NCBI RefSeq assembly: GCF_006345805.1
Contig: NC_043006.1
Location: 55,800,001-55,864,000, forward strand
DNA: 64,000 nucleotides
Reading direction: 5' to 3'
Source of the DNA: Octopus sinensis
Taxonomy: Eukaryota
The first letter of the stretch is position 1; each line of letters opens with the position of its first letter. Positions 7,253-63,017 of the stretch are shown piece by piece. Made by a program: the position numbers and the translations under genes. A model generated the notes under the pieces. The model ran no database searches. It saw nothing but the letters and a program-made list of their open reading frames with translations, and had not been told where the DNA came from.

Positions 7253-8811
7253 TAGATCATAAAACGAGGGATCGGTACTTGGTGGGTCGGAACATTTGCA
7301 TACTCGTATATTCCATCTTCCGTTTCTCATTAACTATATATATATTATACATTTATATATATATACATACATTTGTGTATGTGTGTGTGTGTATGTGTGT
7401 GTGTGTGTACGTGTGTGTGTGTGTGTGTGTGTGTGTGTACATACCACATCTTTCTTAATTTAGTGCTAGTTCGAATATCGGTAAGGTTTTATAGAAATTT
7501 TCTCTAAACACCATGTTATTTCTCAGAATTAATAATCAGAAACGAGAATGCATTTTCTTCATTTATATCAAAACAGAATTTGAGTGACGGAAATTGAATT
7601 GAATAGAACAGAACAGGTATAATCGAATTATATAGTTTTTCATCACACGTTTTTTTCCAGTTGACACCACAAAGGACATTTTAAACAAGGAAGATTTTTT
7701 TCTTGTCACACTATTTGGCTGGTGAAGATATCAAAGAAGCCTCTCATGTTCACATCTAATAAACGAAGTTTAATTTTTTTTTCTAGGCTGTCGTGTTATA
7801 TACGCTGTTCTTTCGTATTTTAGGAGAAAATAACGAAAATTATTTCAAATTTGAAGAAGTCCCCCGTTTCATTTCGGACAGGCGTATTTCATTTACGAAT
7901 TCTGTAGTGTGTATGCCCGCGCGCGCGTGTGTATCCGTGCTTGTGTGTGTGTGTGTGCTTGTGTGTTATGTATGTTATGCTTACAGGACAATGTGGGATC
8001 TTGTATGTGCAGCCTATATGCTAGATACAGCAGTTACATCATCCTAGCTGCATTATTATATGAGAAAAGTAGACAGTCTTGTCATAGATTCACAGTTGAA
8101 CTGCTTTGATCATAAGTTTGCTCGCTCAGAAATTATCTACAATAACTACAACAACAGCACTAGCAATAGTAACAAGTATAACAACAACTTTATTTGACCT
8201 TCGGAAGATTCCAGCTGTAAAGATAATATTTGAAAATATAGCCGTTCTTTAATCTTGTACCAAATAAATACAAAATTCAATGAATTCCATTTATGTCAAA
8301 CATTTTGGAAATACAAAATTATACAGCGGGCTGTATCATTTTTTAAGGCGGCTGGCAGTGATTTGTGAGAATTTGTCTAATTGGTTGTATGGCTATGACA
8401 CAATTCTCGGAAAGGGATATATATATAAATTTGTAATGCAAAGGAGACAACTCTAAAATATTTTACAAGAGTTTTTTCCCTTATTAAGGCTCTACTCGAT
8501 ATACTTTCACAAATGCTTTAATTGTATCAAATGTTGCTTTGGATTTTATTGACCACAATTTTGCTGATATTTTGGCATTTAGAGAGTTTAGACCTCCACG
8601 ATGTGAAGAAAATGTCGATTGCACTAAACCAGTATGGAAGATATCACTCATGTAATCAACAGGTACGGATGAAAGGGTTTTGTTTTTCTGATGGATATGC
8701 CAAAAACAAACCAGAATCAGAATATTTCTATAACTTTAAAAATAAAGAATAAAAATAAAATATTCCAATAAAAACAGCAATCTGGTGTAAGCACAATACG
8801 ACAGATATTAA

Positions 8812-9215
8812 GGCCGCGAACTGGCAGAAACGTTAGCACACCGGGCAAAATGCTTAGCGGTATTTCGTCTGCCGCTACGTTCTGAGTTCAAATTCCGCCG
8901 AGGTCGACTTTGCCTTTCATCCTTTCGGGGTCGATTAAATAAGTACGAGTTACGCACTGGGGTCGATATAATCGACATAATCCGTTTGTCTGTCCTTGTT
9001 TGTCCCCTCTGTGCTTAGCCCCTTGTGGGTAGTAAAGAAATAGGTATTTTGTCTGACTTTATGTTCTGAGTTCAAATTCCGCCGAGGTCGACTTTGCCTT
9101 TCATCCTTTCGGGGTCGATTACATAAGTACCAGCTATGCACTGGGATCGATATAATCGACGTAGTCCGTATGTCTGTCCTTGTTTGTCCCCTCTGTGTGG
9201 GTAGTAAAGAAATAA
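8812..9215 (+). mobile_element. SINE family A (tRNA-like head), internally duplicated
   Basis: tggcagaaacgttagc ... gagttcaaattccgccgaggtcgactttgcctttcatcctttcggggtcga occurs twice; tail tgtgggtagtaaagaaata. Confidence 0.9.
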
Positions 9216-17410: not shown

Positions 17411-17439
17411 CAACAGCAATAGCAGCAGAAGCAACATTA

Positions 17440-17860
17440 AGGCGGCGAGCTGGCAGAAGCGTTAGCACGCCGTGCGGAATGCTTTATTGTATTTCATCCG
17501 CCGTTGCTTTCTGAGTTCAAATTCCGCCGAGGTCGACTTTGCCATTCATCCTTTCGGGGTCGATTAAATAAGTACCAGTTACGCACTGGGATCGATATAA
17601 TCGACTTAATCCATTTGTCTGTCCATGTTTGTCCTCACTGTGTTTAGCCCCTTGTGGGTAGTAAAGAAATAGGTATTTCGTCTCCCGTTACGTTCTGAGT
17701 TCAAATTCCGCCGAGGTCGACTTTGTCTTTCATCCTTTCGAGGTCGATTAAATAAGTACCAGTTACACACTGGGATCGATATAATCGACTTAATCTGTTT
17801 GTTTGTCCTTGTTTGTCCCCTCTGTGTGTAGCCCCTTATGGGCAGTAAAGAAATAAAGAA
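17440..17860 (+). mobile_element. SINE family A, internally duplicated
   Basis: Same structure as 8812-9215. Confidence 0.9.
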
Positions 17861-22932: not shown

Positions 22933-24210
22933 TACATGGGATCATTCCATAAATAATGCGGTTTTTTCAATTGCATGCACCAAAAGTCAGTGGGAGACAG
23001 AATGAACTACCTGTATCAACTTACTATAAAATCAGGTAGAAATGTTACTTGTACTTATTCTTAGTGAAATTTTTGAAGAGTGCAGTTCGATTTTAACAGT
23101 TATTTTTTTCAAAGTTATAATGGAAGTGACAAAGGAGCATATTCGGCATATTTTGCTTTATGAGTTCAATAATGGCAACAACACAACGGAAAATGCGAGG
23201 AATATTAATGCAGTATACAAAGATCGGAGAATAAGCGTAAGCCAGTGTCAACGGTGGTTCCAGAAATTCTGAGCCGGAAACTACAGCCTAGCAGACGAGC
23301 CTCGTTCTGGAAGAGCTGTACAGCTCGACGAGGGCGTCCTGCAAACCATGATGGAACAAAATCCCACCGTAACTGTTGAGGAAGTAGCACAGAGGCTTTC
23401 GTCATTCATCGACACCTGCGTGCCATGAGTAAAGTTAGCAAATTGGGTCAATGGATTTCTTACAAACTTTTCGAGTCTAATCGCGAGAAGAGAGTGAATG
23501 TGTGATCTTCATTACTGTTACGTCCCACGAATGAACCGTTTTTTTTTTTGACTGAATAAGTGACTGCTGACGACAAATGGGTTCTCTATCAAAATGTCCA
23601 GTGCCGAAGACAGTGGGTAGGCAAAGGAGAAACACCGGTACTCCAGGCTAAAGAAGGTCTTCACCCAGGTAAGGTGTTGTTATCTGTTTGATGGGATATG
23701 AATGGTTTAGACCACTTTGAACTTTTAAACCCAAATCAAACGATGACAAAGGAGATCTATTGCAAGCAGCTTGAGCGGCTTAAGTCAGCGCCAGAAGAAA
23801 ACCGACCATCTTTGGTTTCAAGACTAAAGGTGTTCTTCCATCAGGATAATGCTTGGCCACATACAGTGAGGATAACATTCCAAAGGCTGGAGCAGTGTGA
23901 ATGGGAAAAGATGCCCCACCCACCATATTCGCCGAATATTGTCTCATCTGATTATCATTTAATCCGCAGTCTTCTAAATCATTTGTACGGAAAATATATG
24001 AATTCTGTAAACGAGTTCAGAACAGTACTGGAGGAGTACTTTTCGACACGGACAAGTGAATTTTTGAAAAGGGACCTTGCAAGTCTACTAGATAGATAGT
24101 AGAGCATTGTAGAAAATGAAGAAGGGTATATTTTAGATTAAGAAAGAACTTTGTTTATCTTAATTTTGAAAAATAAAAGAGGTATAAAAAATGTATTATT
24201 TATGGGATGT

Positions 24211-24215
<5 letters not shown>
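22933..24215 (+). mobile_element. Near full-length mariner (DD34D-type) transposon with pseudogenised transposase
   Basis: TIRs gggatcattccataaataatgcggtttt / aaaatgtattatttatgggatgtcc, flanked by TA. HTH region MEVTKEHIRHILLYEF..QRWFQKF, then VTADDKW, HQDNAWPH and HPPYSPNIVSSDYHL. Confidence 0.92.
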
Positions 24216-24257
<42 letters not shown>

Positions 24258-24306
24258 AGAACAAATTGTACCTACGCCACTATATATATGAAAAATACAA
24301 AATGGG

Positions 24307-24968
24307 ACAAGAACGTAAAACATCCGGACAGCTAGGTGATACAAAAGGGGACAACAAAACATCTAAATAGACGATACAAAGAAAACAAGGACGTGTCATT
24401 CGAAGTATTCTTTCTTCGGTGAAGCACCAGATTATCCTCGCAATTTCGACTGATTATTCTTGAGATTGCTCCAATCTGGCCAGCCCCAAGGAAAAACTAA
24501 GCTAAGAGCATTAGATTCCCTGGAAGAAAGCAGCGAATGTATACAAAAACAAGGACGGAAAAAACGGACAATGTTATACAAATATAAATGCAAAATAAAA
24601 AATACAATAAAAATAATAACAGGACATAACAACAGGTGTCTTTCGACTAAGGACGAACTGAATTAAGCTGGCGCTTGTGGAAATGAAGCCTTACAGCTAT
24701 ATATTGTCCTTTTTTTCGTCCTTGCCTTTGTATCCATTCGCTGCTTTCTTCCAAGGAATCTAATGCTCTTAGGTTAGTTTTTCTTTGGGGCTGGCCAGAT
24801 TGGAGCAATCTCGAGTATAACCAGCCGAAATTGCAAAGATAATCTGGAACTCGACTAAGGAAAGAAAACTCCAAATGACTCGTCCTTGTTTTCTTTGTAT
24901 CGTCTGTCTGGATGTTTTATTGTCCCTTTTTTGTATCACCTAACTGTCTGGATGTTTTACGTTCTTGT
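24307..24968. mobile_element. Inverted pair of ~265-bp repeat arms (probable PLE pLTR inversion) in (TA)n; related copy at ~6435-6620
   Basis: 24307-24573 is a diverged reverse complement of 24702-24968, with a spacer of ~130 bp. Confidence 0.75.
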
Positions 24969-25007
24969 TATATATATATATATATATAGCGGTGTACATA
25001 CACTTTA

Positions 25008-25082
<75 letters not shown>

Positions 25083-37591: not shown

Positions 37592-37943
37592 ACACACACA
37601 CATATATCTGTGATGCCTCAGCATGGCTTTTGCCGTAGGGCTGAAACGTATAAAAGAATAAAAGAATACACACATATTGTTAAAATAAATCATTTATACA
37701 TTAATTTCCAAATGAATTACTTTACATTATCATAATAATGTCTGTATATGCGTAGGATTTTGTGGGATGGTGGTACATGTGAGTTTGTGAGTGTATGTAT
37801 ATGTGAGTACATGGTGTGTATATAAAGACGGCACATGTTTGCAGTGAATGAATGTGCATTCTTTTGTAGATGGAATAAGATCGGGAGAATAAGAATTTAA
37901 AACAAATGAAAGACAATAATATAACAAAGCAAAGTAAACTTAC

Positions 37944-39433
37944 CCCGACTTAGAAAAGTTTGCAAAAAGACTTGTCGTCCTTTTTGTTACTAAATTTCCT
38001 TCTTTTGAATAATTTTTTCCAGATAACGTTTGAGCAAATAGGAATTCAATCTCATACCCATGCATCACACCAGCCCATTCCGGCCAAGGATTTAATCTCG
38101 ATCGAAATTCGAAAGAATACATATAAACTTTGGCATGTTTGCTGTATTCCTGGGCAAATTCGATAACAGGACATTTAAATTTGACATCTCCTGATGCTTG
38201 GTCCAATATGTATCTGTATTTTTCAGTTTCAGAAGAGCCGTAGACATGAGAACCATAAAGATAAGATATTAAATCCAACTGCACAGAATTTGCGCGTAAC
38301 GGTGCGATTACCTTATTAATCAATTTGCCTGCGGTAGATTTGTTTATCGGAACAGTTCCTTTCAAGGGGAAATATTTCGGTAGATCATAGATAAGAAAAT
38401 AGGTTCCTTCGTTTGTGACATAGCCAAGTAACACATCCTTTTTCTGTGGTTCATTTTTCAGAGATTCTATTGGTTTCTGTGTCAAGAAAGCGCCGTCAAC
38501 AATAGGGCTTAAAGTATAAGGTAGGAAACTATCTAAATTATGAAACTGCGCGTTTGCAAGTTTATGAGCATCAGCTTCTAGAAAGCAATCTATCATCGAT
38601 GTAGTATTCTCGGTTGGACACTTAAGGAAATCAGCCATCGCTTTCGCTCTTTCAATGTTTTTCTCTACAGGCACAGTTGCCCACGTTGCTGTTGCCGAAC
38701 CACTCATCATAATAGCATTCCTGAAAAGCCTCTGAGAAAGTGGGGAAACGACGTGCAGACTAACTGATCCAGAACCAGCACTTTCTCCAAATAGTGTCAG
38801 TTTTTTAGGATCGCCACCGAACGATAAAATGTTATCACGAATCCATTGTATAGCAAGGGTTTGATCTAATAATCCCATGTTACCGGGAGCACGTACGTTA
38901 TTCAAGGAAAGGAAACCAAATGGTCCTAATCTATAATTTAGTGATGCAACGATGACATTTTCACTAGCAGCTAACCATCGTCCATCATATATATCCAGCG
39001 TGCTTGATCCAGACATAAATGCACCTCCAAATATCCAAATCATGGTAGCTAACTGTGAACGAGACTTTCTTGCTTCTGATGGCGCCCAAATGTTCAAATA
39101 AAGACAATCTTCGCTCATAACAGTATTTGGATTCCACATTTCTGCACCTTCAAAGTCCCCGAATGTAGTGTCTTTAACTTGTACACACGACGAAACATAT
39201 TTCTTTGTTTCTTTCACACCAGACCATGGTCTAGCTGGTTGAGGATGTCTAAATCTTAGATTACCAACGGGAGGTCGAGCAAATGGTATTCCAAGAAAGA
39301 CATCAACTTCAACACCTTGAATTAAAACTGTTGATCCTTTAATCTTACCTTTATTAGTTTGAATAATCGGGTCTTCTGCATGGACGTAAATTTTTAACAG
39401 AAAAATTATGAAAATATATTTCAGTCCTTCCAT
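37944..39433 (-). CDS. ACHE: Cholinesterase (acetylcholinesterase-like), first coding exon: signal peptide plus most of the alpha/beta-hydrolase domain
   Basis: 497-aa ORF with hydrophobic N-terminus and the motifs FLGIPFARPPVGNLRF, EMWNPN (Trp84 equivalent), SEDCLYLNIW, FGESAG (catalytic Ser at 38780-38782), NEGTYF (Glu) and GVMHGYEIEF (His). It ends at NFSKSG with GG|GTAAGT, so the track's TAA belongs to the splice donor. A polypyrimidine+CAG acceptor at 39464-39466 lies 30 nt upstream of the ATG. The symbol is family-level; orthology is not established. Confidence 0.95.
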
Positions 39434-39710
39434 GATATGAATGGTTCAAATGATGACGAAACTCTGAAGAAAAAAGAAAAAGAAACAGAAGTTTATTATA
39501 AGAACCAATTTGGTTGTCTTCATGTCAATGTAGCTTAATTTTCAGTTAACTTCGAATGTCAGACTTATATCACAGTAAAAACGTGTTTGGAGAATATGAT
39601 AGATAAATAGTAGCCTCATCACAAGGCGTGTTAGAAAGCAAAGTTTACTTTAGAATAATTTAATACCAAATGTGGAGACTGATGTTATAGAAAGCATTTT
39701 AAACAATTAT

Positions 39711-43846: not shown

Positions 43847-45662
43847 TACGGCAAAACGATCAGCCACCTTTTATATATGGATGACATGAAACTATACGCT
43901 ACAAATGACAAACAGCTGGAAACACTATTAAAGACAGTTAATGGATTTACCAAAGAAATAGATATGAAATTTGGTTTAGAGAAATGCGCCAAAGTAACCC
44001 TGAAAAGAGGAAAACTAGTTATGAGTAGCAACATCACACTAGATAAAACCAATGAAATAAAAGAATTAGACCAAAGCCAACTTACAAATACTTAGGAATC
44101 CATGAACTAGATAAGACACAACACACACAAATGAAAAAGAAAATAAAAAAAGAATATTATAGACGAGTTAGATCAATACTGAAAACAGAGCTCAATGCTA
44201 AAAACAAGATAATAGGTATCAACACTTTAGCCGTCCCAGTTATAAGTTACAGCTACAATATCCTTAACTGGACACTAAATGAACTGACCAAAATAGATAG
44301 GAAACAAGAAAAATAATGACAGGATCTAGGATGCATCACCCAAAATCTGACATATAAAGGCTATATATACAACGTATAGAAGGTGGAGAGGCCTTATGCA
44401 GCTGAAAACTACTATAAAATAACACCATAGGACTGCAAAAATATCTACTTCGGAAGGAAGGAAAACTGATACAATAGCGGCAAAACACACGAGCAAAACA
44501 AAAAACTGTTCTCAGTATTTTAAGGAAGCTGACAAATACAAACAAGAATCATACCACCTAACAAATATGAAGAAGAAGAAGAAGAAGAAGAAGAAGAAGA
44601 AGAAGAAGAAGAAGAAGAAGAAGAAGAAGGACGAAGAAGAAGAAGAAGAAGAAGAAAAGAAGAAGAAGAAGAAGAAGAAGAGAAGAACAACAAAAGCTAT
44701 AAAACAAATGAATCCAACTAAAATAGAACAGCAACGAACTGTGATAAAACGATGGCAAGAAAAGCCCTTTCATGGCAAATACTGGAGTAAACTAAATGTA
44801 AAGAAATAGACAAAAAAAAATCCCAGCAATGGTTGAGAACTCAGGACTCAAAGCAGAGACAGAAGGATTTTTAATTGCAGCACAAAACCAAAGCCTCCCC
44901 ACCAGATTAACCACCAAACATGTAATGAAAAGAAATATAACAAGTAACTGCAGAATATGTGGAGATGGACAAGAAACAATAAATCATATCATCTCTGGCT
45001 GCCCAGTCCTGGCTAAGAAGGCATATATTCACAGACAACACAGAGTTGGGACCTATATACCTGGAAGCTATGCCAACATTATGAAATAACAACAAAAAAA
45101 ATAGTACAAGAACAGGCACACACATGCCAACATATGAAAATAAAACAACAGAAAAAGATAGTACAGGCACACACAGAAAAGGTCACAGAAAACGAGAAAG
45201 CAACCATAATCTGGGATATGCCAATACACACAGATAGAGAATTAAGGCCAACAGACCAGATTAGTTGTCGAGATCATGAAGAAAAAAAATGCTTCTAAAT
45301 GATGTATCAATACCAGCAGATGACAACGTGTCTCTAAAAGAAATGGAGAAAACTCTCAAATCCAAAGACTGGAAATAGAGGTAACCAGAATGTGGAATAT
45401 GAAAACAGAAACAATTCCTATCATAATAGGTACATAAGGCATGATAAAAAAATATTCAGACAAATACATAACAAAAAACACCAGGACTTACCAAACACAT
45501 ATAACATACAGAAAAATTGCAATACTAGGCACTGCACACAGCCTACGAGAACACTTTCCATACAGTAACCATCAGAGCATCACAACAAATCACAGCACAT
45601 ACCCAAGGCACACAGAGCTGCGCTCGGTAGTGAAGTGAAAGCACGCTATAAAAATAAAACTA

Positions 45663-45747: not shown

Positions 45748-46240
45748 CAGTTCCAGACAAAAGTGGGACTCAAAAACCAAAGCCATCCCCATTAGAAGAG
45801 GAATATTTCTGGGAGACACACCCTCTCCTTCCTTTTCTAATTAGTACTGACACCTTTATCTGACATACTAAACAGAACTGGATGTGGATACAACTGTTAC
45901 GGCAAAACAATCAGCCACCTCTTATATATGGATGACCTAAAATTGTATGCTACAAATGATAAACAACTGGAAACATTACAACAGACAGTACATGGATTTA
46001 CCAAAGAAATAAATATGAAATTTGGCTCAGAAAAATTTGCCAAAGCAACCTTGAAAAGAGGGAAACTAGTTAAGAGTAGCAGCATCAAGCTAGATAAAAT
46101 AAATGAAATAAGAGAATTAGACCAAAGCCAAACTTACAAATATTTAGGAATCAATGAACTAGATACGATACAACATACACAAATGAAAGAGAAAATAAAA
46201 AAAGAATACTATAGACAAGTTAGATTAATACTGAAAACTA
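45748..46240 (+). mobile_element. R4/Dong-type LINE RT fragment
   Basis: RGIFLGD (QGD motif region), HLLYMDDLKLYA and YKYLGI; paralogous to 43846-44190. Confidence 0.88.
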
Positions 46241-46548
46241 TTGTGTCTGTGTGTGTTAATGTTAGCATTTTCAAGCGCTTTTTAATAGCGTAGCTAAGCA
46301 TATACTGATGGTGTGATTCTATAATGAGAGTAGAGTAAAACTTATGAATATCAAGTTGACTGGAACTTCATATTTTGTCTATCCGCTTGAAGGGCTCAGT
46401 GAAGGAGCATTTTACTTGTGATTTCCTTAAATAAAAGAATTTTTTGTTAAATAAATGAAGTAGGCATAATTGGTGTTGCCATTTGTTACAAATTTCAATG
46501 AATGGTTAGATGGTGATTTCTTTTCTTCTTCTGGGATTTCCGTTTTTC

Positions 46549-47374: not shown

Positions 47375-47744
47375 TTCTTTATTGCCTACAAGGGGCTAAA
47401 TATAGAGAGGGCAGACAAAGGCATTAAGTCGATTACATCGACCCCAGTGCGTAACTGGTACTTATTTAATCGACACCGAAAGGATGAAAGTCAAAGTCGA
47501 CCTCGGCAGAATTTGAACTCAGAACGTAGCGGCAGACGAAATACCTATTTCTTTACTACCCACAAGGGGCTAAACACAGAGAGAACAAAGAAGGACAGAC
47601 AAACGGATTAAGTCGATTATATCGACCCCAGTGCGTAACTGGTAATTATTTAATCGACCCCTAAAGGATGGAAGACAAAGTCGACCTCGGCAGAATTTGA
47701 ACTCAGAACGTAGCGGCAGATGAAATACCTCTAAGCATTTCTCC
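47375..47744 (-). mobile_element. SINE family A, internally duplicated, head cut by the 363-bp unit
   Basis: Reverse complement of the family A body, present twice. Confidence 0.88.
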
Positions 47745-48175: not shown

Positions 48176-48216
<41 letters not shown>

Positions 48217-48221
<5 letters not shown>

Positions 48222-49671
48222 ATAAACGGTAAGATACAAAAGAAGAAAGAGACCTCAATATTATGTAAATAGAGGAAATTTATCTATACAATATGTTACA
48301 TTACTCGGTAGTCAAGATAAAACTCTGAGTTTCAGATGCCGAAGTGGAAATCCACAACACCATCTCTTCGGTTATCTGGCTATTTGAAAACGTTATGAAA
48401 AAATACCGTTAAAAATGAAGGGAAATTACTCTGTTATAACTCTGCTTTGCCTGCGTACTTATCATCGCTCGCATTTTTCGTCATAAAAATTATATAAAAA
48501 TACATAAAAATATATAAAAATATATAAAATATATAAAATCTCTTGGGACATAACACAGAAAGCATGTTCTATCCGTTTTCTTTAGGGGACCAAAAACGTA
48601 ACAGAAATTTAGTCACATGTGGGCATGATCCGAAAAGCTCTGTCCTTGTATTTAGACATGTGGTAGGGTCTAAGCTGCTTTTCCAGATAAGCCATCTCTC
48701 CATGTCGCATAAACCGCACCTTCCGCTGCCGTTAGTATAGGGCTTACATCTGGCCAAAATCTTCCATTGTATGTTATAATCGACACCTTTATCTCTTAAA
48801 GACCAAATATGATTGGATAATTGTGTCGCTTTTCTTTTGTTCCAGTGCCTAAGCTCAAAGTGTGGTTATTGAACCTGGCCTTGAAATTACCCTCTGTCAG
48901 GCCCACGTATTTCTTCGTCGAAAACGGTGTCTTTAGTGGTTATAGAGTTTACGGTAGCTTCATATATGATGGTCTTGGACATGCAAGCTCCATTTAGCGG
49001 GCACAATTCTTTATTCCTGCATGAACAGCTGTTTTCTTCTTGTGTTTTTTGTATGTTATGATTGATTATGTTTTAAAATTGGTAGTTGAACTAAAACTAA
49101 TTTTTAAATTGTGTCTATTAAAGAGTTTCCTATAAGCATGGTTAACTGGAAAATGTCTATCTATCAGTGCTAGGAAATATTACCTATATTGAAGGCCACC
49201 TCGGGTGAGTAAGGGGGCGTAAACCAGATGACCTTCCTATTTCTATTATTCCTTTTCCTTATTGTTGGGCTGGTGATAGGTGTATATTTTATTTTTTCGC
49301 TAAAACCACTATCTTTTAAAGCTTTATTATAAACTGGGGCAACGCTATTGAAGATGTCCTCATTAGATGAGAGGCTAGAAATCCTCTTACTAATATTTTT
49401 AACTAAATTTTTGAATACTATAGGGGGATGGCATGAACCTACATTAATATAACTTAGTCTATCATTGGGCTTCCTATAAGGCTTATAAATATTATTATTA
49501 AGATCTAAGGAAACGTCTAAGAAATTGACAACCGTCAGGTTAGTGTCTATAGTTATACTAAGTCCGAAGTGTTTCATTAACTGGATAATATCCTTCCTAA
49601 AACGATCTTGTGCTGGTCCATTTGTATTAGCTGTTAAGGCGAGGGCATCATCTTTGTAGATGGCGAAATGT
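48217..49671 (-). mobile_element. Penelope-like retroelement (Naiad-like), 5'-truncated; left arm of the palindrome
   Basis: ORF pieces 49170-49577 and 48569-48757 encode the RT C-terminus/thumb (NFLDVSLDL..YKPYRKPND..YINVGSCHPP) and the GIY-YIG tail. The arm is the reverse complement of 49672-51129. Confidence 0.9.
48315..48377 (-). ncRNA. Mirror copy of the PLE hammerhead motif
   Basis: Reverse complement of 50967-51029. Confidence 0.65.
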
Positions 49672-51244
49672 ACATTTCGCCATCTACAAAGATGATGCCC
49701 TCGCCTTAACAGCTATACAAATGGACCAGCACAAGATCGTTTTAGGAAGGATATTATCCAGTTAATGAAACACTTCGGACTTAGTATAACTATAGACACT
49801 AACCTGACGGTTGTCAATTTCTTAGACGTTTCCTTAGATCTTAATAATAATATTTATAAGCCTTATAGGAAGCCCAATGATAGACTAAGTTATATTAATG
49901 TAGGTTCATGCCATCCCCCTATAGTATTCAAAAATTTAGTTAAAAATATTAGTAAGAGGATTTCTAGCCTCTCATCTAATGAGGACATCTTCAATAGCGT
50001 TGCCCCAGTTTATAATAAAGCTTTAAAAGATAGTGGTTTAGCGAAAAATAAAATATACACCTATCACCAGCCCAACAATAAGGAAAAGGAATAATAGAAA
50101 TAGGAAGGTCATCTGGTTTACGCCCCCTTACTCACCCGAGGTGGCCTTCAATATAGGTAAATATTTCCTAGCACTGATAGATAGACATTTTCCAGTTAAC
50201 CATGCTTATAGGAAACTCTTCAATAGACACAATTTAAAAATTAGTTTTAGTTCAACTACCAATTTTAAAAACATAATCAATCATAACATACAAAAAAACA
50301 CAAGAAGAAAACAGCTGTTCATGCAGGAATAAAGAATTGTGCCCGCTAAATGGAGCTTGCATGTCCAAGACCATCATATATGAAGCTACCGTAAACTCTA
50401 TAACCACTAAAGACACCGTTTCGACGAAGAAATACGTGGGCCTGACAGAGGGTAATTTCAAGGCCAGGTTCAATAACCACACTTTGAGCTTTAGGCACTG
50501 GAACAAAAGAAAAGCGACACAATTATCCAATCATATTTGGTCTTTAAGAGATAAAGGTGTCGATTATAACATACAATGGAAGATTTTGGCCAGATGTAAG
50601 CCCTATACTAACGGCAGCGGAAGGTGCGGTTTATGCGACATGGAGAGATGGCTTATCTGGAAAGCAGCTTAGACCCTACCACATGTCTAAATACAAGGAC
50701 AGAGCTTTTCGGATCATGCCCACATGTACTAAATTTCTGTTACGTTTTTGGTCCCCTAAAGAAAACGGATAGAACATGCTTTCTGTGTTATGTCCCAAGA
50801 AGATTTTATATATTTTTATATATTTTTATATATTTTTATGTATTTTTATATAATTTTTATGACGAAAAATGCGAGCGATGTATAAGTACGCAGGCAAAGC
50901 AGAGTTATAACAGAGTAATTTCCCTTCATTTTTAACGGTATTTTTTCATAACGTTTTCAAATAGCCAGATAACCGAAGAGATGGTGTTGTGGATTTCCAC
51001 TTCGGCATCTGAAACTCAGAGTTTTATCTTGACTACCGAGTAATGTAACATATTGTATAGATAAATTTCCTCTATTTACATAATATTGAGGTCTCTTTCT
51101 TTCTTTTGTATCTTACCGTTTTATCAATAAATCACCTCCCGGACGACGTTATTCTCAACTAAGAGCTAATACGACCTTTTGGGATTATCGCCTAACATCG
51201 GTTTGAGGACTCTCACAAACAAAAGAATCTAATATGGACGCATA

Positions 51245-51248
<4 letters not shown>
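49672..51248 (+). mobile_element. Penelope-like retroelement (Naiad-like), 5'-truncated at RT motif C; right arm plus pLTR-like extension
   Basis: Reads IYKDD (RT catalytic motif), NFLDVSL, SCHPP, WFTPPYS, linker CSCRNKELCPLNGAC, GIY-YIG-like IIYEA...KYVGLTEGNFKARFNNH, CGLC and LNTRTEL. The 3' non-coding region holds a hammerhead motif and the element ends in (TA)n. Confidence 0.9.
50967..51029 (+). ncRNA. Type I hammerhead ribozyme motif in the PLE 3'/pLTR region
   Basis: Stem I agataa/ttatct; core CCGAAGA; stem II gatg...catc with an inner gtgga/tccac hairpin; GAAA; short stem III actc-a-gagt; GUU triplet. Confidence 0.65.
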
Positions 51249-51283
<35 letters not shown>

Positions 51284-61339: not shown

Positions 61340-62440
61340 TTTTGAAGAGTGCAATTCAGTTTTAACAGTTACTTTTTCAAAGCTTTAATGGAAAAGGGAC
61401 AAAGGAGCATATTCGCCGTATCTTACTTTATGAGTTCAATAGCGGCAACAACGAAACGGAAAGTGCGAAGAATACTAATGCAGTATATGGGGATCGGACA
61501 ATAAGAGAAATCCAGTGTCAACGGAATTTCTAGAAAATTCCGAACCGGAAACTATAGCCTAGAAGACGAGCTTCGTCCTGGAAGATCTATAGAGCTCGAC
61601 GAGGACGTCCTGAAAACCCTGGTGGAATAAAATCCCATCGTAGCTGTTGAAGAACTTGGAGAGAAGCTTAGATTTGGTCATCGGAAAAGTTAGCAAATTG
61701 AGTCAATGGATTCCTCACAAACTTTCCGAGTCTAACCACAAGCAGAGAGTGAATGTGTACACTTCTTTGATGTCATGTCTCATGAATGAACCTTTTTGGA
61801 CCGAATAAGTGACTGCTGACGAGAAATGGGTTCTATATAAACATGCCAAGCGCCGAAGACAGTAGGCAAGGAAAGGAGAAACAGGCTAAAGAAGTTATTC
61901 ATCTACGTAGGGTGTTGTTATCTGTTTGGTGGGATATGAAAGGTTTAGTCCACTTTGAACTTTTAAACTCAAACCAAATGATAATAAAGGAGATCTACTG
62001 CGAGAATCTTGGCGGCTTAAGTCAGCGATAGAAGAAAAAGGACCATCTTCGGTTTCAAGACGGAAGGTGTTCTTCTATCAGGATAATGCTTGGTCACATA
62101 CAGCGAGGATGACATTATAAAGACTGGAGCAGTTTGAATGGGAAACGATGCCCCACCCACAACATTCGCCGGATATTGTTCCTTGTGATTATCATTTATT
62201 CTGCCGTCTTCAAAATCATTTGTACGGAAAATATGAATTCTGTAGACGAGATCAGAACAGTACAGGAGTAGTATTTTCGTCACGGAGAAGTGAATTTTTG
62301 AAGAGAGGCTACCAAATAGATGGAATAGCATTGTAGAAAATGAAGGATAGCATAGTTTAACTTAAAAAAGAACTTTGTTTATCTAAATTTTGAAAAATTA
62401 AAAGAAGGAAAAGACGCATTTTTATGGGATGACCGAAAAT
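61340..62440 (+). mobile_element. Second copy of the same mariner family, left TIR missing
   Basis: Colinear with ~23075-24212; motifs LLSVWWDMKGLVHFELL and HPQHSPDIVPCDYHLF; right TIR tttatgggatgacc. Confidence 0.9.
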
Positions 62441-63017
62441 ATATGTATGTACGTATGTATGTATGTATGTATGTATGCATCACTTAATGCACACAGTATA
62501 AAGATACGAGCTCCTGATAATTTTGTGCATTTGAAACGCGAATCTAGGCAGGTTTTTATAACACACCTCGTGTTATAGATCAGCCTAGACTCGCGCCTCC
62601 AATACATGAAACAAATAATAGCTTCTGCCTTTATACTGTGTACATTAAATGACATTTACCTCTAACTGGATGGAATACCGTTTTGTTGATCTTAACTGAA
62701 CAGAACAGTAAACTCGTTTTCTTTCTCTCTCTCTCTCTCTCTCTCATTCTCTCAATACACACAAACATATACATATATATGATCAGATGTTTCGTATAAC
62801 AGTATACAAATTTTAAATATTTTTGATACATGTAACAATGTGCATGATGTTAGAAAATTTAGAATATAAACATAATTTCATATATAGTATTTTCAAATGT
62901 ACATGTGCGCACAAACCCACCCATGTGCGTGCGTGCGTGTGTGTATGTATGTGTATATGTATTAAATATATGTGTATGTAAAGAAAAATAGGTAAAAAGA
63001 AGGATACATACACACAC

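What the first reader, a model, noticed from the sequence alone, without database searches (positions are those of the whole stretch)
48217..51129. ~2.9 kb spacer-less palindrome made of a Naiad-like Penelope element folded at its RT active site
Seen: the symmetry axis lies between 49671 and 49672 (…gatggcgaaatgt|acatttcgccatc…) with no spacer, a few codons upstream of YKDD. The ~1.45-kb arms read outward and differ mostly by 1-bp indels. Frameshifts fall at different places in each arm, so combining them restores an almost continuous RT-thumb-linker-GIY-YIG frame. The flanks differ: the left arm stops in (TA)n while the right continues ~120 bp. Established: PLEs often carry inverted 5' segments, and long perfect palindromes are unstable and hard to assemble. 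Inference: a very young insertion made by fold-back synthesis. If transcribed (for example within a 5' intron of the cholinesterase) it would form a long dsRNA, a strong ADAR/Dicer substrate.
Basis: partly seen in the sequence, partly recalled or inferred. Interest (0 to 1): 0.75.

Follow-up and report, generated by a model that had tools for sequence, protein, structure and literature searches.

The report
Back-to-back Hydra-type Penelope retrotransposon insertion
The 2.9-kb mirror repeat is two truncated, back-to-back copies of a young, abundant Penelope-like jumping gene of the Hydra group (not Naiad); most copies of this family sit this way, likely because two DNA copies are started at two different fixed points of the element's RNA and then joined, so it is ordinary in kind but useful for testing how these elements insert.

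Summary
The palindrome is in the assembly as described: axis in GTAC at 49670-73, 15 one-base indels and 1 substitution between arms. The element is a Hydra-clade Penelope-like element (RT, then C-terminal GIY-YIG; RWK, DKT, CxCx5C, hammerhead, (TA)n target), not Naiad. The family is young, with 727 exact copies of one end. Head-to-head insertion is its normal form: 77 of 94 insertions sampled on two chromosomes. Of these, 73 pair one arm ending at site A with one ending at site B, 67 nt further on. Arms share their start within 2 nt in 11 of 65 simple pairs (1.0 expected), either arm can be the longer, and joints carry microhomology. This favours two primed cDNAs joined end to end over fold-back. 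The window copy is atypical: its right arm runs past B to +18 of the next ORF, and its arms differ at a family polymorphism (sole discordant pair of 21), suggesting two templates. The indels are likely consensus errors; the fold next to YKDD is likely coincidence. No public contig spanned the axis (inconclusive). The scan noted head-to-head Penelope palindromes before on other DNA of this genome.

The parts
48179..48219 (.). (TA)n target, left side
48217..49673 (-). Left arm: 5'-truncated element, element coordinates 1022-2486 (ORF ATG = +1), ending at site B; carries T at polymorphic site 1576
49670..49673 (.). GTAC micro-palindrome shared by both arms; the symmetry axis
49670..51129 (+). Right arm: element coordinates 1022-2486; carries C at site 1576
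49685..49696 (+). YKDD codons, right arm (left arm copy 49647-49658, -)
50316..50342 (+). CxCx5C linker codons (left arm copy 49001-49027, -)
50343..50772 (+). C-terminal GIY-YIG endonuclease region with CxxC and CxH, ending at the stop codon (left arm copy about 48569-49000, -)
50967..51029 (+). Hammerhead-type motif in the pseudo-LTR (core CCGAAGA ... GAAA; short stem III), right arm
   Evidence: layout compared with File S2 of PMC8557442
48315..48377 (-). Hammerhead-type motif, left arm
51064..51129 (+). Tail between site A (51063) and site B (51129); also present in the left arm (48217-48280)
51130..51251 (+). Read-through past B into the next unit's 5' UTR and the first 18 nt of its ORF (ATG at 51234); ends in ATA at the target
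51250..51273 (.). (TA)n target, right side
37943..39445 (-). Context: carboxyl/cholinesterase-family large exon (Met near 39433), member of a tandem cluster that continues beyond the palindrome

Best explanation
This is one insertion of a young Hydra-clade Penelope-like retrotransposon, made of two 5'-truncated copies joined head to head in a (TA)n tract, likely formed when both ends of a cut target each primed a separate cDNA and the two cDNA 3' ends then annealed at the self-complementary GTAC. Shown: the anatomy, the clade motifs, and the family-wide pattern. Inferred: the endonuclease cuts both strands of (TA)n; each 3' end pairs with an AUA in the RNA, normally one at site A and one at site B; the two reverse transcriptases run 5'-ward, often on the same RNA with strand displacement, stop, and are joined by microhomology. 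In this copy the right arm was likely primed instead near the RNA's 3' end (+18 of the next ORF) and on a second RNA of the other haplotype. The one-base indels are likely long-read consensus errors, not biology.
For: Family: 58 matches to the right arm in the own genome among 40 of 1968 candidates scored, most at 99%; 727 exact B ends and 562 exact A ends. B-anchored sample, 94 insertions (97 listed on C1 and C2, 3 dropped as duplicates): 77 head-to-head, 17 solo; 73 of 77 are A+B, none B+B. In 65 simple A+B pairs the A arm reaches more than 25 nt further 5' in 26 and the B arm in 17; starts agree within 2 nt in 11 (permutation mean 1.0; 0 of 20000). 42 of 47 joints without inserted bases overlap by 2 nt or more (18.6% expected). 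9 of 20 short B arms start at 2408-2425, at site A (p 0.0009). Arms of one insertion disagree at 21 of 1298 polymorphic site calls, arms of different insertions at 16.7%. At site 1576, 20 of 21 pairs agree and the window is the exception. Segment ends at +16 to +42 recur in 7 other loci, and L192 also pairs a B arm with a read-through arm ending at +28. L002 is another 2.9-kb palindrome with a 1-nt spacer. For each of the 15 indels one state is seen in 83-173 of 207 fetched loci and the other in 0-5. The esterase left of the palindrome is 58-62% identical to 4 cluster members on the right (a fifth, split, 55-66%) and 35-39% to 3 elsewhere. In vitro, an anole PLE cuts and extends both strands and starts at two internal sites that bound the tail (PMC11167929).
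Against: No public contig spanned the axis in 4 runs, so the junction has no independent support. The window copy breaks the family's A+B rule, and its exact right end is unique in the genome. The two-template inference rests on one base. Same-RNA priming is not separable from two RNAs of one source locus. The start-matching excess is weak for long arms alone (2 of 36 within 2 nt, 855 of 20000 permutations; 8 of 36 within 25 nt, 2 of 20000). Joint overlaps are BLAST overlaps and may be slightly inflated. The anole element starts at sites without target homology, unlike the ATA match here.
Confidence: 0.7

Rival explanations
1. Fold-back: one cDNA primed at +18 reached GTAC, turned on itself and was copied back to site B.
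For: Identical start points and no spacer; the left arm is nested inside the right arm; L192 has the same layout at a natural hairpin; start matching is common in the family.
Against: The arms differ at polymorphic site 1576. A spacer-less turn would prime from one base pair over a 2-nt loop (inference). 26 of 65 family pairs cannot be fold-back copies of a target-anchored strand.
Confidence: 0.1
2. Assembly artefact: a fold-back (missed-adapter) read created the axis and the assembler joined arms from two copies.
For: 15 indels against 1 substitution point to poor local consensus; arms carry different haplotypes; the B plus read-through layout is rare (2 of 40 read-through hits).
Against: Both flanks belong to one esterase cluster; no N or adapter-like spacer; both ends stop at ATA in (TA)n like natural copies; the axis sits on a micro-palindrome as in 4 of 5 zero-offset pairs; similar large palindromes occur elsewhere (L002, L043, L050).
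Confidence: 0.1
3. An ordinary A+B insertion whose right arm was later broken (cruciform) and repaired from a tandem donor of the other haplotype, which added the tail and 122 nt of read-through.
For: One event would explain the missing A end, the read-through and the allele mismatch; 40 read-through loci could serve as donors.
Against: Needs a conversion tract of over 1 kb ending by chance at +18, inside the +16 to +42 zone where other segments end.
Confidence: 0.1

Closest known systems
Hydra clade of C-terminal EN+ Penelope-like elements, esp. Hydra-1_Obim and Penelope-13_HM (PMC8557442; section 11, passages, supplement rows and alignment hits seen)
   Same: Unit under 3 kb (2590 bp), single RT-EN ORF, RWK, DKT, CxCx5C, CxxC, CxH, no CCHH, hammerhead motif, (TA)n targets. 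Hydra-1_Obim is closely similar by eye along the RT. Penelope-13_HM is listed with a 5'-truncated inverted copy at its 5' end.
   Different: A distinct family: its hammerhead sequence differs from that listed for Hydra-1_oBim; core mostly CCGAAGA (90 insertions C, 3 T); catalytic motif YKDD where the 10 aligned relatives have YRDD; clear pseudo-LTR tandems and a 67-nt tail.
Poseidon_Ac (PAc) of Anolis, Penelope/Poseidon clade (PMC11167929; parts 1-2 of 4 read)
   Same: Two internal start sites bounding a tail; both target strands extended; AT-rich target; weak priming from the RNA 3' end.
   Different: PAc start sites lie 111-118 nt inside the ORF and lack target homology; here both lie before the next ATG and end in ATA matching (TA)n; tail 67 nt versus 30-40.
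Penelope insertions of Adineta vaga with inverted pLTRs (PMC3846280; passages read)
   Same: Head-to-head inverted repeats with palindromes at the junction and a tail on one arm.
   Different: That paper proposes self-priming on an antisense template; the counts here favour two target-primed cDNAs.
Naiad PLEs (PMC8557442)
   Same: (TA)n preference; inverted 5'-truncated copies.
   Different: Naiads have an N-terminal EN, CxC motif, CCHH, 3.4-4.4 kb and no canonical hammerhead.
LINE-1 twin priming (recalled, not read here)
   Same: Both target strands prime cDNA; joint by microhomology gives an inversion.
   Different: L1 segments are non-overlapping parts of one RNA; here arms usually overlap almost fully and start at fixed sites.

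Membership tests
Hydra PLE | Single ORF, RT followed by C-terminal GIY-YIG EN | tested here: met
   (GIY-YIG at 428-460 of 545 aa, E 0.0086, below cut-off); no fetched copy had the whole frame open
Hydra PLE | N-terminal RWK motif | tested here: met
   KRMRWKAFFF in locus L031; lies 5' of the window's truncation
Hydra PLE | DKT in place of DKG | tested here: met
   LDKTKN in L031
Hydra PLE | CxCx5C linker | tested here: met
   CSCRNKELC in both arms
Hydra PLE | No CCHH in EN; CxxC and CxH near the end | tested here: met
   No cysteines between the two halves of the GIY-YIG core; CGLC and CPH present
Hydra PLE | Length under 3 kb | tested here: met
   2590-bp tandem period in L031
Hydra PLE | Canonical hammerhead | tested here: inconclusive
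   Descriptor match in both arms, 0 in 100 shuffles (pattern built from this sequence); core has C for U in most copies; Rfam gave no hammerhead hit; MFE fold shows stem II only
Hydra PLE | (TA)n target | tested here: met
Hydra PLE | Placement in the Hydra clade by RT phylogeny | not testable with these tools
   Reference proteins could be read in the supplement but not used as input; comparison by eye only
Naiad PLE | N-terminal GIY-YIG EN | tested here: not met
   EN follows RT
Naiad PLE | CCHH motif in EN and CX2-5CxxC finger | tested here: not met
Naiad PLE | Length 3.4-4.4 kb, no canonical hammerhead | tested here: not met
Neptune / Penelope-Poseidon / Nematis PLE | CCHH motif inside the GIY-YIG core | tested here: not met
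   definition from PMC8557442

The most novel reading that the evidence does not exclude
This family's insertions record how Penelope-like elements make tails and inverted copies: a dimer primes both target strands at two fixed RNA sites 67 nt apart, usually on one RNA; the downstream enzyme either stalls at the upstream primer (tail-only arm) or displaces it, both can run off the same RNA 5' end (spacer-less palindrome), and the ends join by microhomology. The window copy is a rare case built from two different RNAs.
Probability: 0.45. Interest if true: 0.62.

Novelty: new member of a known kind. Interest (0 to 1): 0.36.

Why it matters
The palindrome itself is an expected PLE footprint. Its value is the family: about 700 young insertions give counts that bear on a question the field calls open (how PLEs form tandem/inverted structures and tails; PMC8557442 section 15). 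The counts argue against simple fold-back and fit the in vitro two-start-site result. Searches for a twin-priming account of PLEs listed no paper whose title or abstract start states one (listings only, open-access library). Hundreds of such hairpin-forming insertions could feed RNA editing or small-RNA pathways if transcribed, which was not tested.

Tried and rejected
Public reads: contigs of 4 runs on the left flank and arm were swamped by family copies and showed no informative joint. On the 52-bp axis, 3 of 4 runs laid nothing and the fourth gave 7 ordinary element contigs that stop at the GTAC: no verdict. No RNA holder listed. No alternative haplotype of the right flank in the assembly; other hits were 70-87% old repeats. 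The exact axis occurs once in the genome, so it is not an inherited master junction. An apparent truncation hot spot at 980-1020 in the first, biased set did not hold in the unbiased set. RNA fold around that region is unremarkable (z -0.41). Shared private substitutions between arms show no A>G excess (1 of 26), so no sign of edited templates. Rfam matches were sub-threshold hairpin hits. Pfam has no RT match for this clade; PDB sequence search gave nothing significant. 120 listed homologues (43-53% identity) carried no informative names. The first between/within-arm comparison was inflated by (TA)n aligned past site A and was redone without those sites. No earlier scan note matched this sequence.

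Full report
Observation. The window holds an inverted repeat with arms 48217-49671 and 49672-51129, no spacer, 15 one-base indels and one internal substitution. Both outer ends abut (TA)n; the right arm runs 122 nt further than the left.

What the element is. A search of the own genome with the right arm gave 58 matches from 40 of 1968 candidates scored, most at 99%. Locus L031 holds a partial tandem with a 2590-bp period; I used it as a natural reference, numbering from the ORF's ATG. Its frames read RWK, DKT, YKDD, a CxCx5C linker, a GIY-YIG core without CCHH, then CxxC and CxH. These are the features by which PMC8557442 defines the Hydra clade (section 11). The published Hydra-1_Obim protein is closely similar by eye, and Penelope-13_HM is listed with an inverted 5' copy. 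A hammerhead-type motif laid out like those in the paper's File S2 lies in each arm, though Rfam does not score it. The extra 122 nt of the right arm are the next unit's 5' UTR and first 18 ORF bases.

How the family inserts. Exact patterns found 727 ends at site B (coordinate 2486) and 562 at site A (2419). I took the 97 B ends listed on contigs C1 and C2, dropped 3 as duplicates, and entered one (L097) by hand. Of 94 insertions, 77 are head-to-head and 17 solo; 73 of the 77 pair an A end with a B end, and none is B+B. No A+A pair appeared among 30 A-anchored loci, a few of which were cut off by the locus edge. Both sites end in ATA, matching the target. In 65 simple pairs the A arm reaches over 25 nt further 5' in 26 and the B arm in 17. 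Starts agree within 2 nt in 11 (1.0 expected) and within 25 nt in 22 (4.3 expected). Joints are rich in microhomology: 42 of 47 without inserted bases overlap by 2 nt or more, against 18.6% for random joints. Nine of 20 short B arms begin at site A. Arms of one insertion share subfamily alleles (1.6% discordance against 16.7% between insertions). 33 of 155 arm starts fall at 2295-2337, just before the hammerhead, and segments ending at +16 to +42 recur; I infer these are the RNA's 5' and 3' ends.

Mechanism (inferred). A fold-back copy of a target-anchored cDNA must be nested in that cDNA. An A-primed strand lacks the tail, and a B-primed strand cannot yield a longer A arm, so 26 of 65 pairs are not simple fold-backs. 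Two target-primed cDNAs, one per site, joined by microhomology, account for all counts. B arms stopping at A and matched starts suggest that both often use one RNA. This fits the in vitro behaviour of the anole element, which extends both strands, starts at two internal sites bounding the tail and is predicted to be a dimer (PMC11167929, parts 1-2 of 4). PMC3846280 instead proposes self-priming on antisense RNA (passages); a free hairpin cut with random polarity is not excluded by my counts.

The window copy. It is not alone in size: L002 is a 2.9-kb palindrome with a 1-nt spacer, and L043 and L050 are near-symmetric. It is atypical in having B plus a read-through end; L192 is the only other such case among the 40 read-through hits. 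Its single substitution falls on site 1576, which splits the family; 20 of 21 pairs agree there and this one does not. That points to two templates. A cDNA ending in GTAC can anneal to the same GTAC in a second cDNA (3 such sites per unit), which gives a spacer-less axis without fold-back. This rests on one base. The indels are near-singletons (minority state in 0-5 of 207 fetched loci, which overlap in part) and lie mostly in base runs, so they are likely consensus errors. Closeness to YKDD is likely chance.

Artefact test. Public contigs gave no verdict. The esterase gene left of the palindrome belongs with the cluster on its right, which argues against a distant misjoin. I put an artefact at about 10%.

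Host gene. A carboxyl/cholinesterase exon lies at 37943-39445 on the minus strand, its start codon 8.8 kb from the left arm. Whether a 5' UTR intron covers the palindrome was not testable.

Other papers. 10.64898/2026.07.22.740005 (passages) and PMC13282606 (passages) added only clade lists and the statement that young Penelope families exist in an octopus genome. bioRxiv supplements were not seen. LINE-1 twin priming and the instability of long palindromes are recalled.

Verdict. A new family of a known clade showing a known architecture; earlier scan notes describe the same architecture for other Penelope families in this genome. The interest lies in the family-wide counts, which make the insertion mechanism testable.

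Noticed in passing
window 24213-25078: A second, older head-to-head inverted pair (81-87% complementary) flanked by (TA)n, unrelated in sequence to this element; probably another PLE-type remnant.
   Followed up: partly
L023 and L165: Two loci share the same 1003/1741 joint (5-nt microhomology) with the A and B ends swapped; L121 versus L137/L166 likewise. Either recurrent joining or a common double-armed source.
   Followed up: partly
L183, L198, L204, L209, L211, L233: Complex insertions with an internal segment from about 2300-2345 to +16..+88, as if the RT jumped from the 5' to the 3' end of a short (about 310-nt) pseudo-LTR RNA or read a circle.
   Followed up: partly
L226 1631-5001: Tandem array of a 520-bp piece spanning the pseudo-LTR/ORF junction, joined at a 5-nt microhomology.
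   Followed up: no
L054, L168, L100: Three arms start at 2380-2381, next to the predicted hammerhead cut after 2379; two may instead reflect stem I microhomology.
   Followed up: no
window 37943-39445 and G000:C10:55.96-56.15 Mb: Tandem cluster of at least 8 large-exon carboxyl/cholinesterase loci, several split or with internal stops.
   Followed up: partly
window 23071-24254 and 61340-62476: Two 81%-identical repeat copies whose frames look like Tc1/mariner transposase remnants (label recalled).
   Followed up: no
window 43847-44313 and 45841-46290: Two fragments of a non-LTR RT (YMDD motif), 88% identical.
   Followed up: no
window 47375-47740, 8807-9214, 17436-17855: Tandem 184-bp units of a dispersed short repeat next to the left flank.
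   Followed up: no
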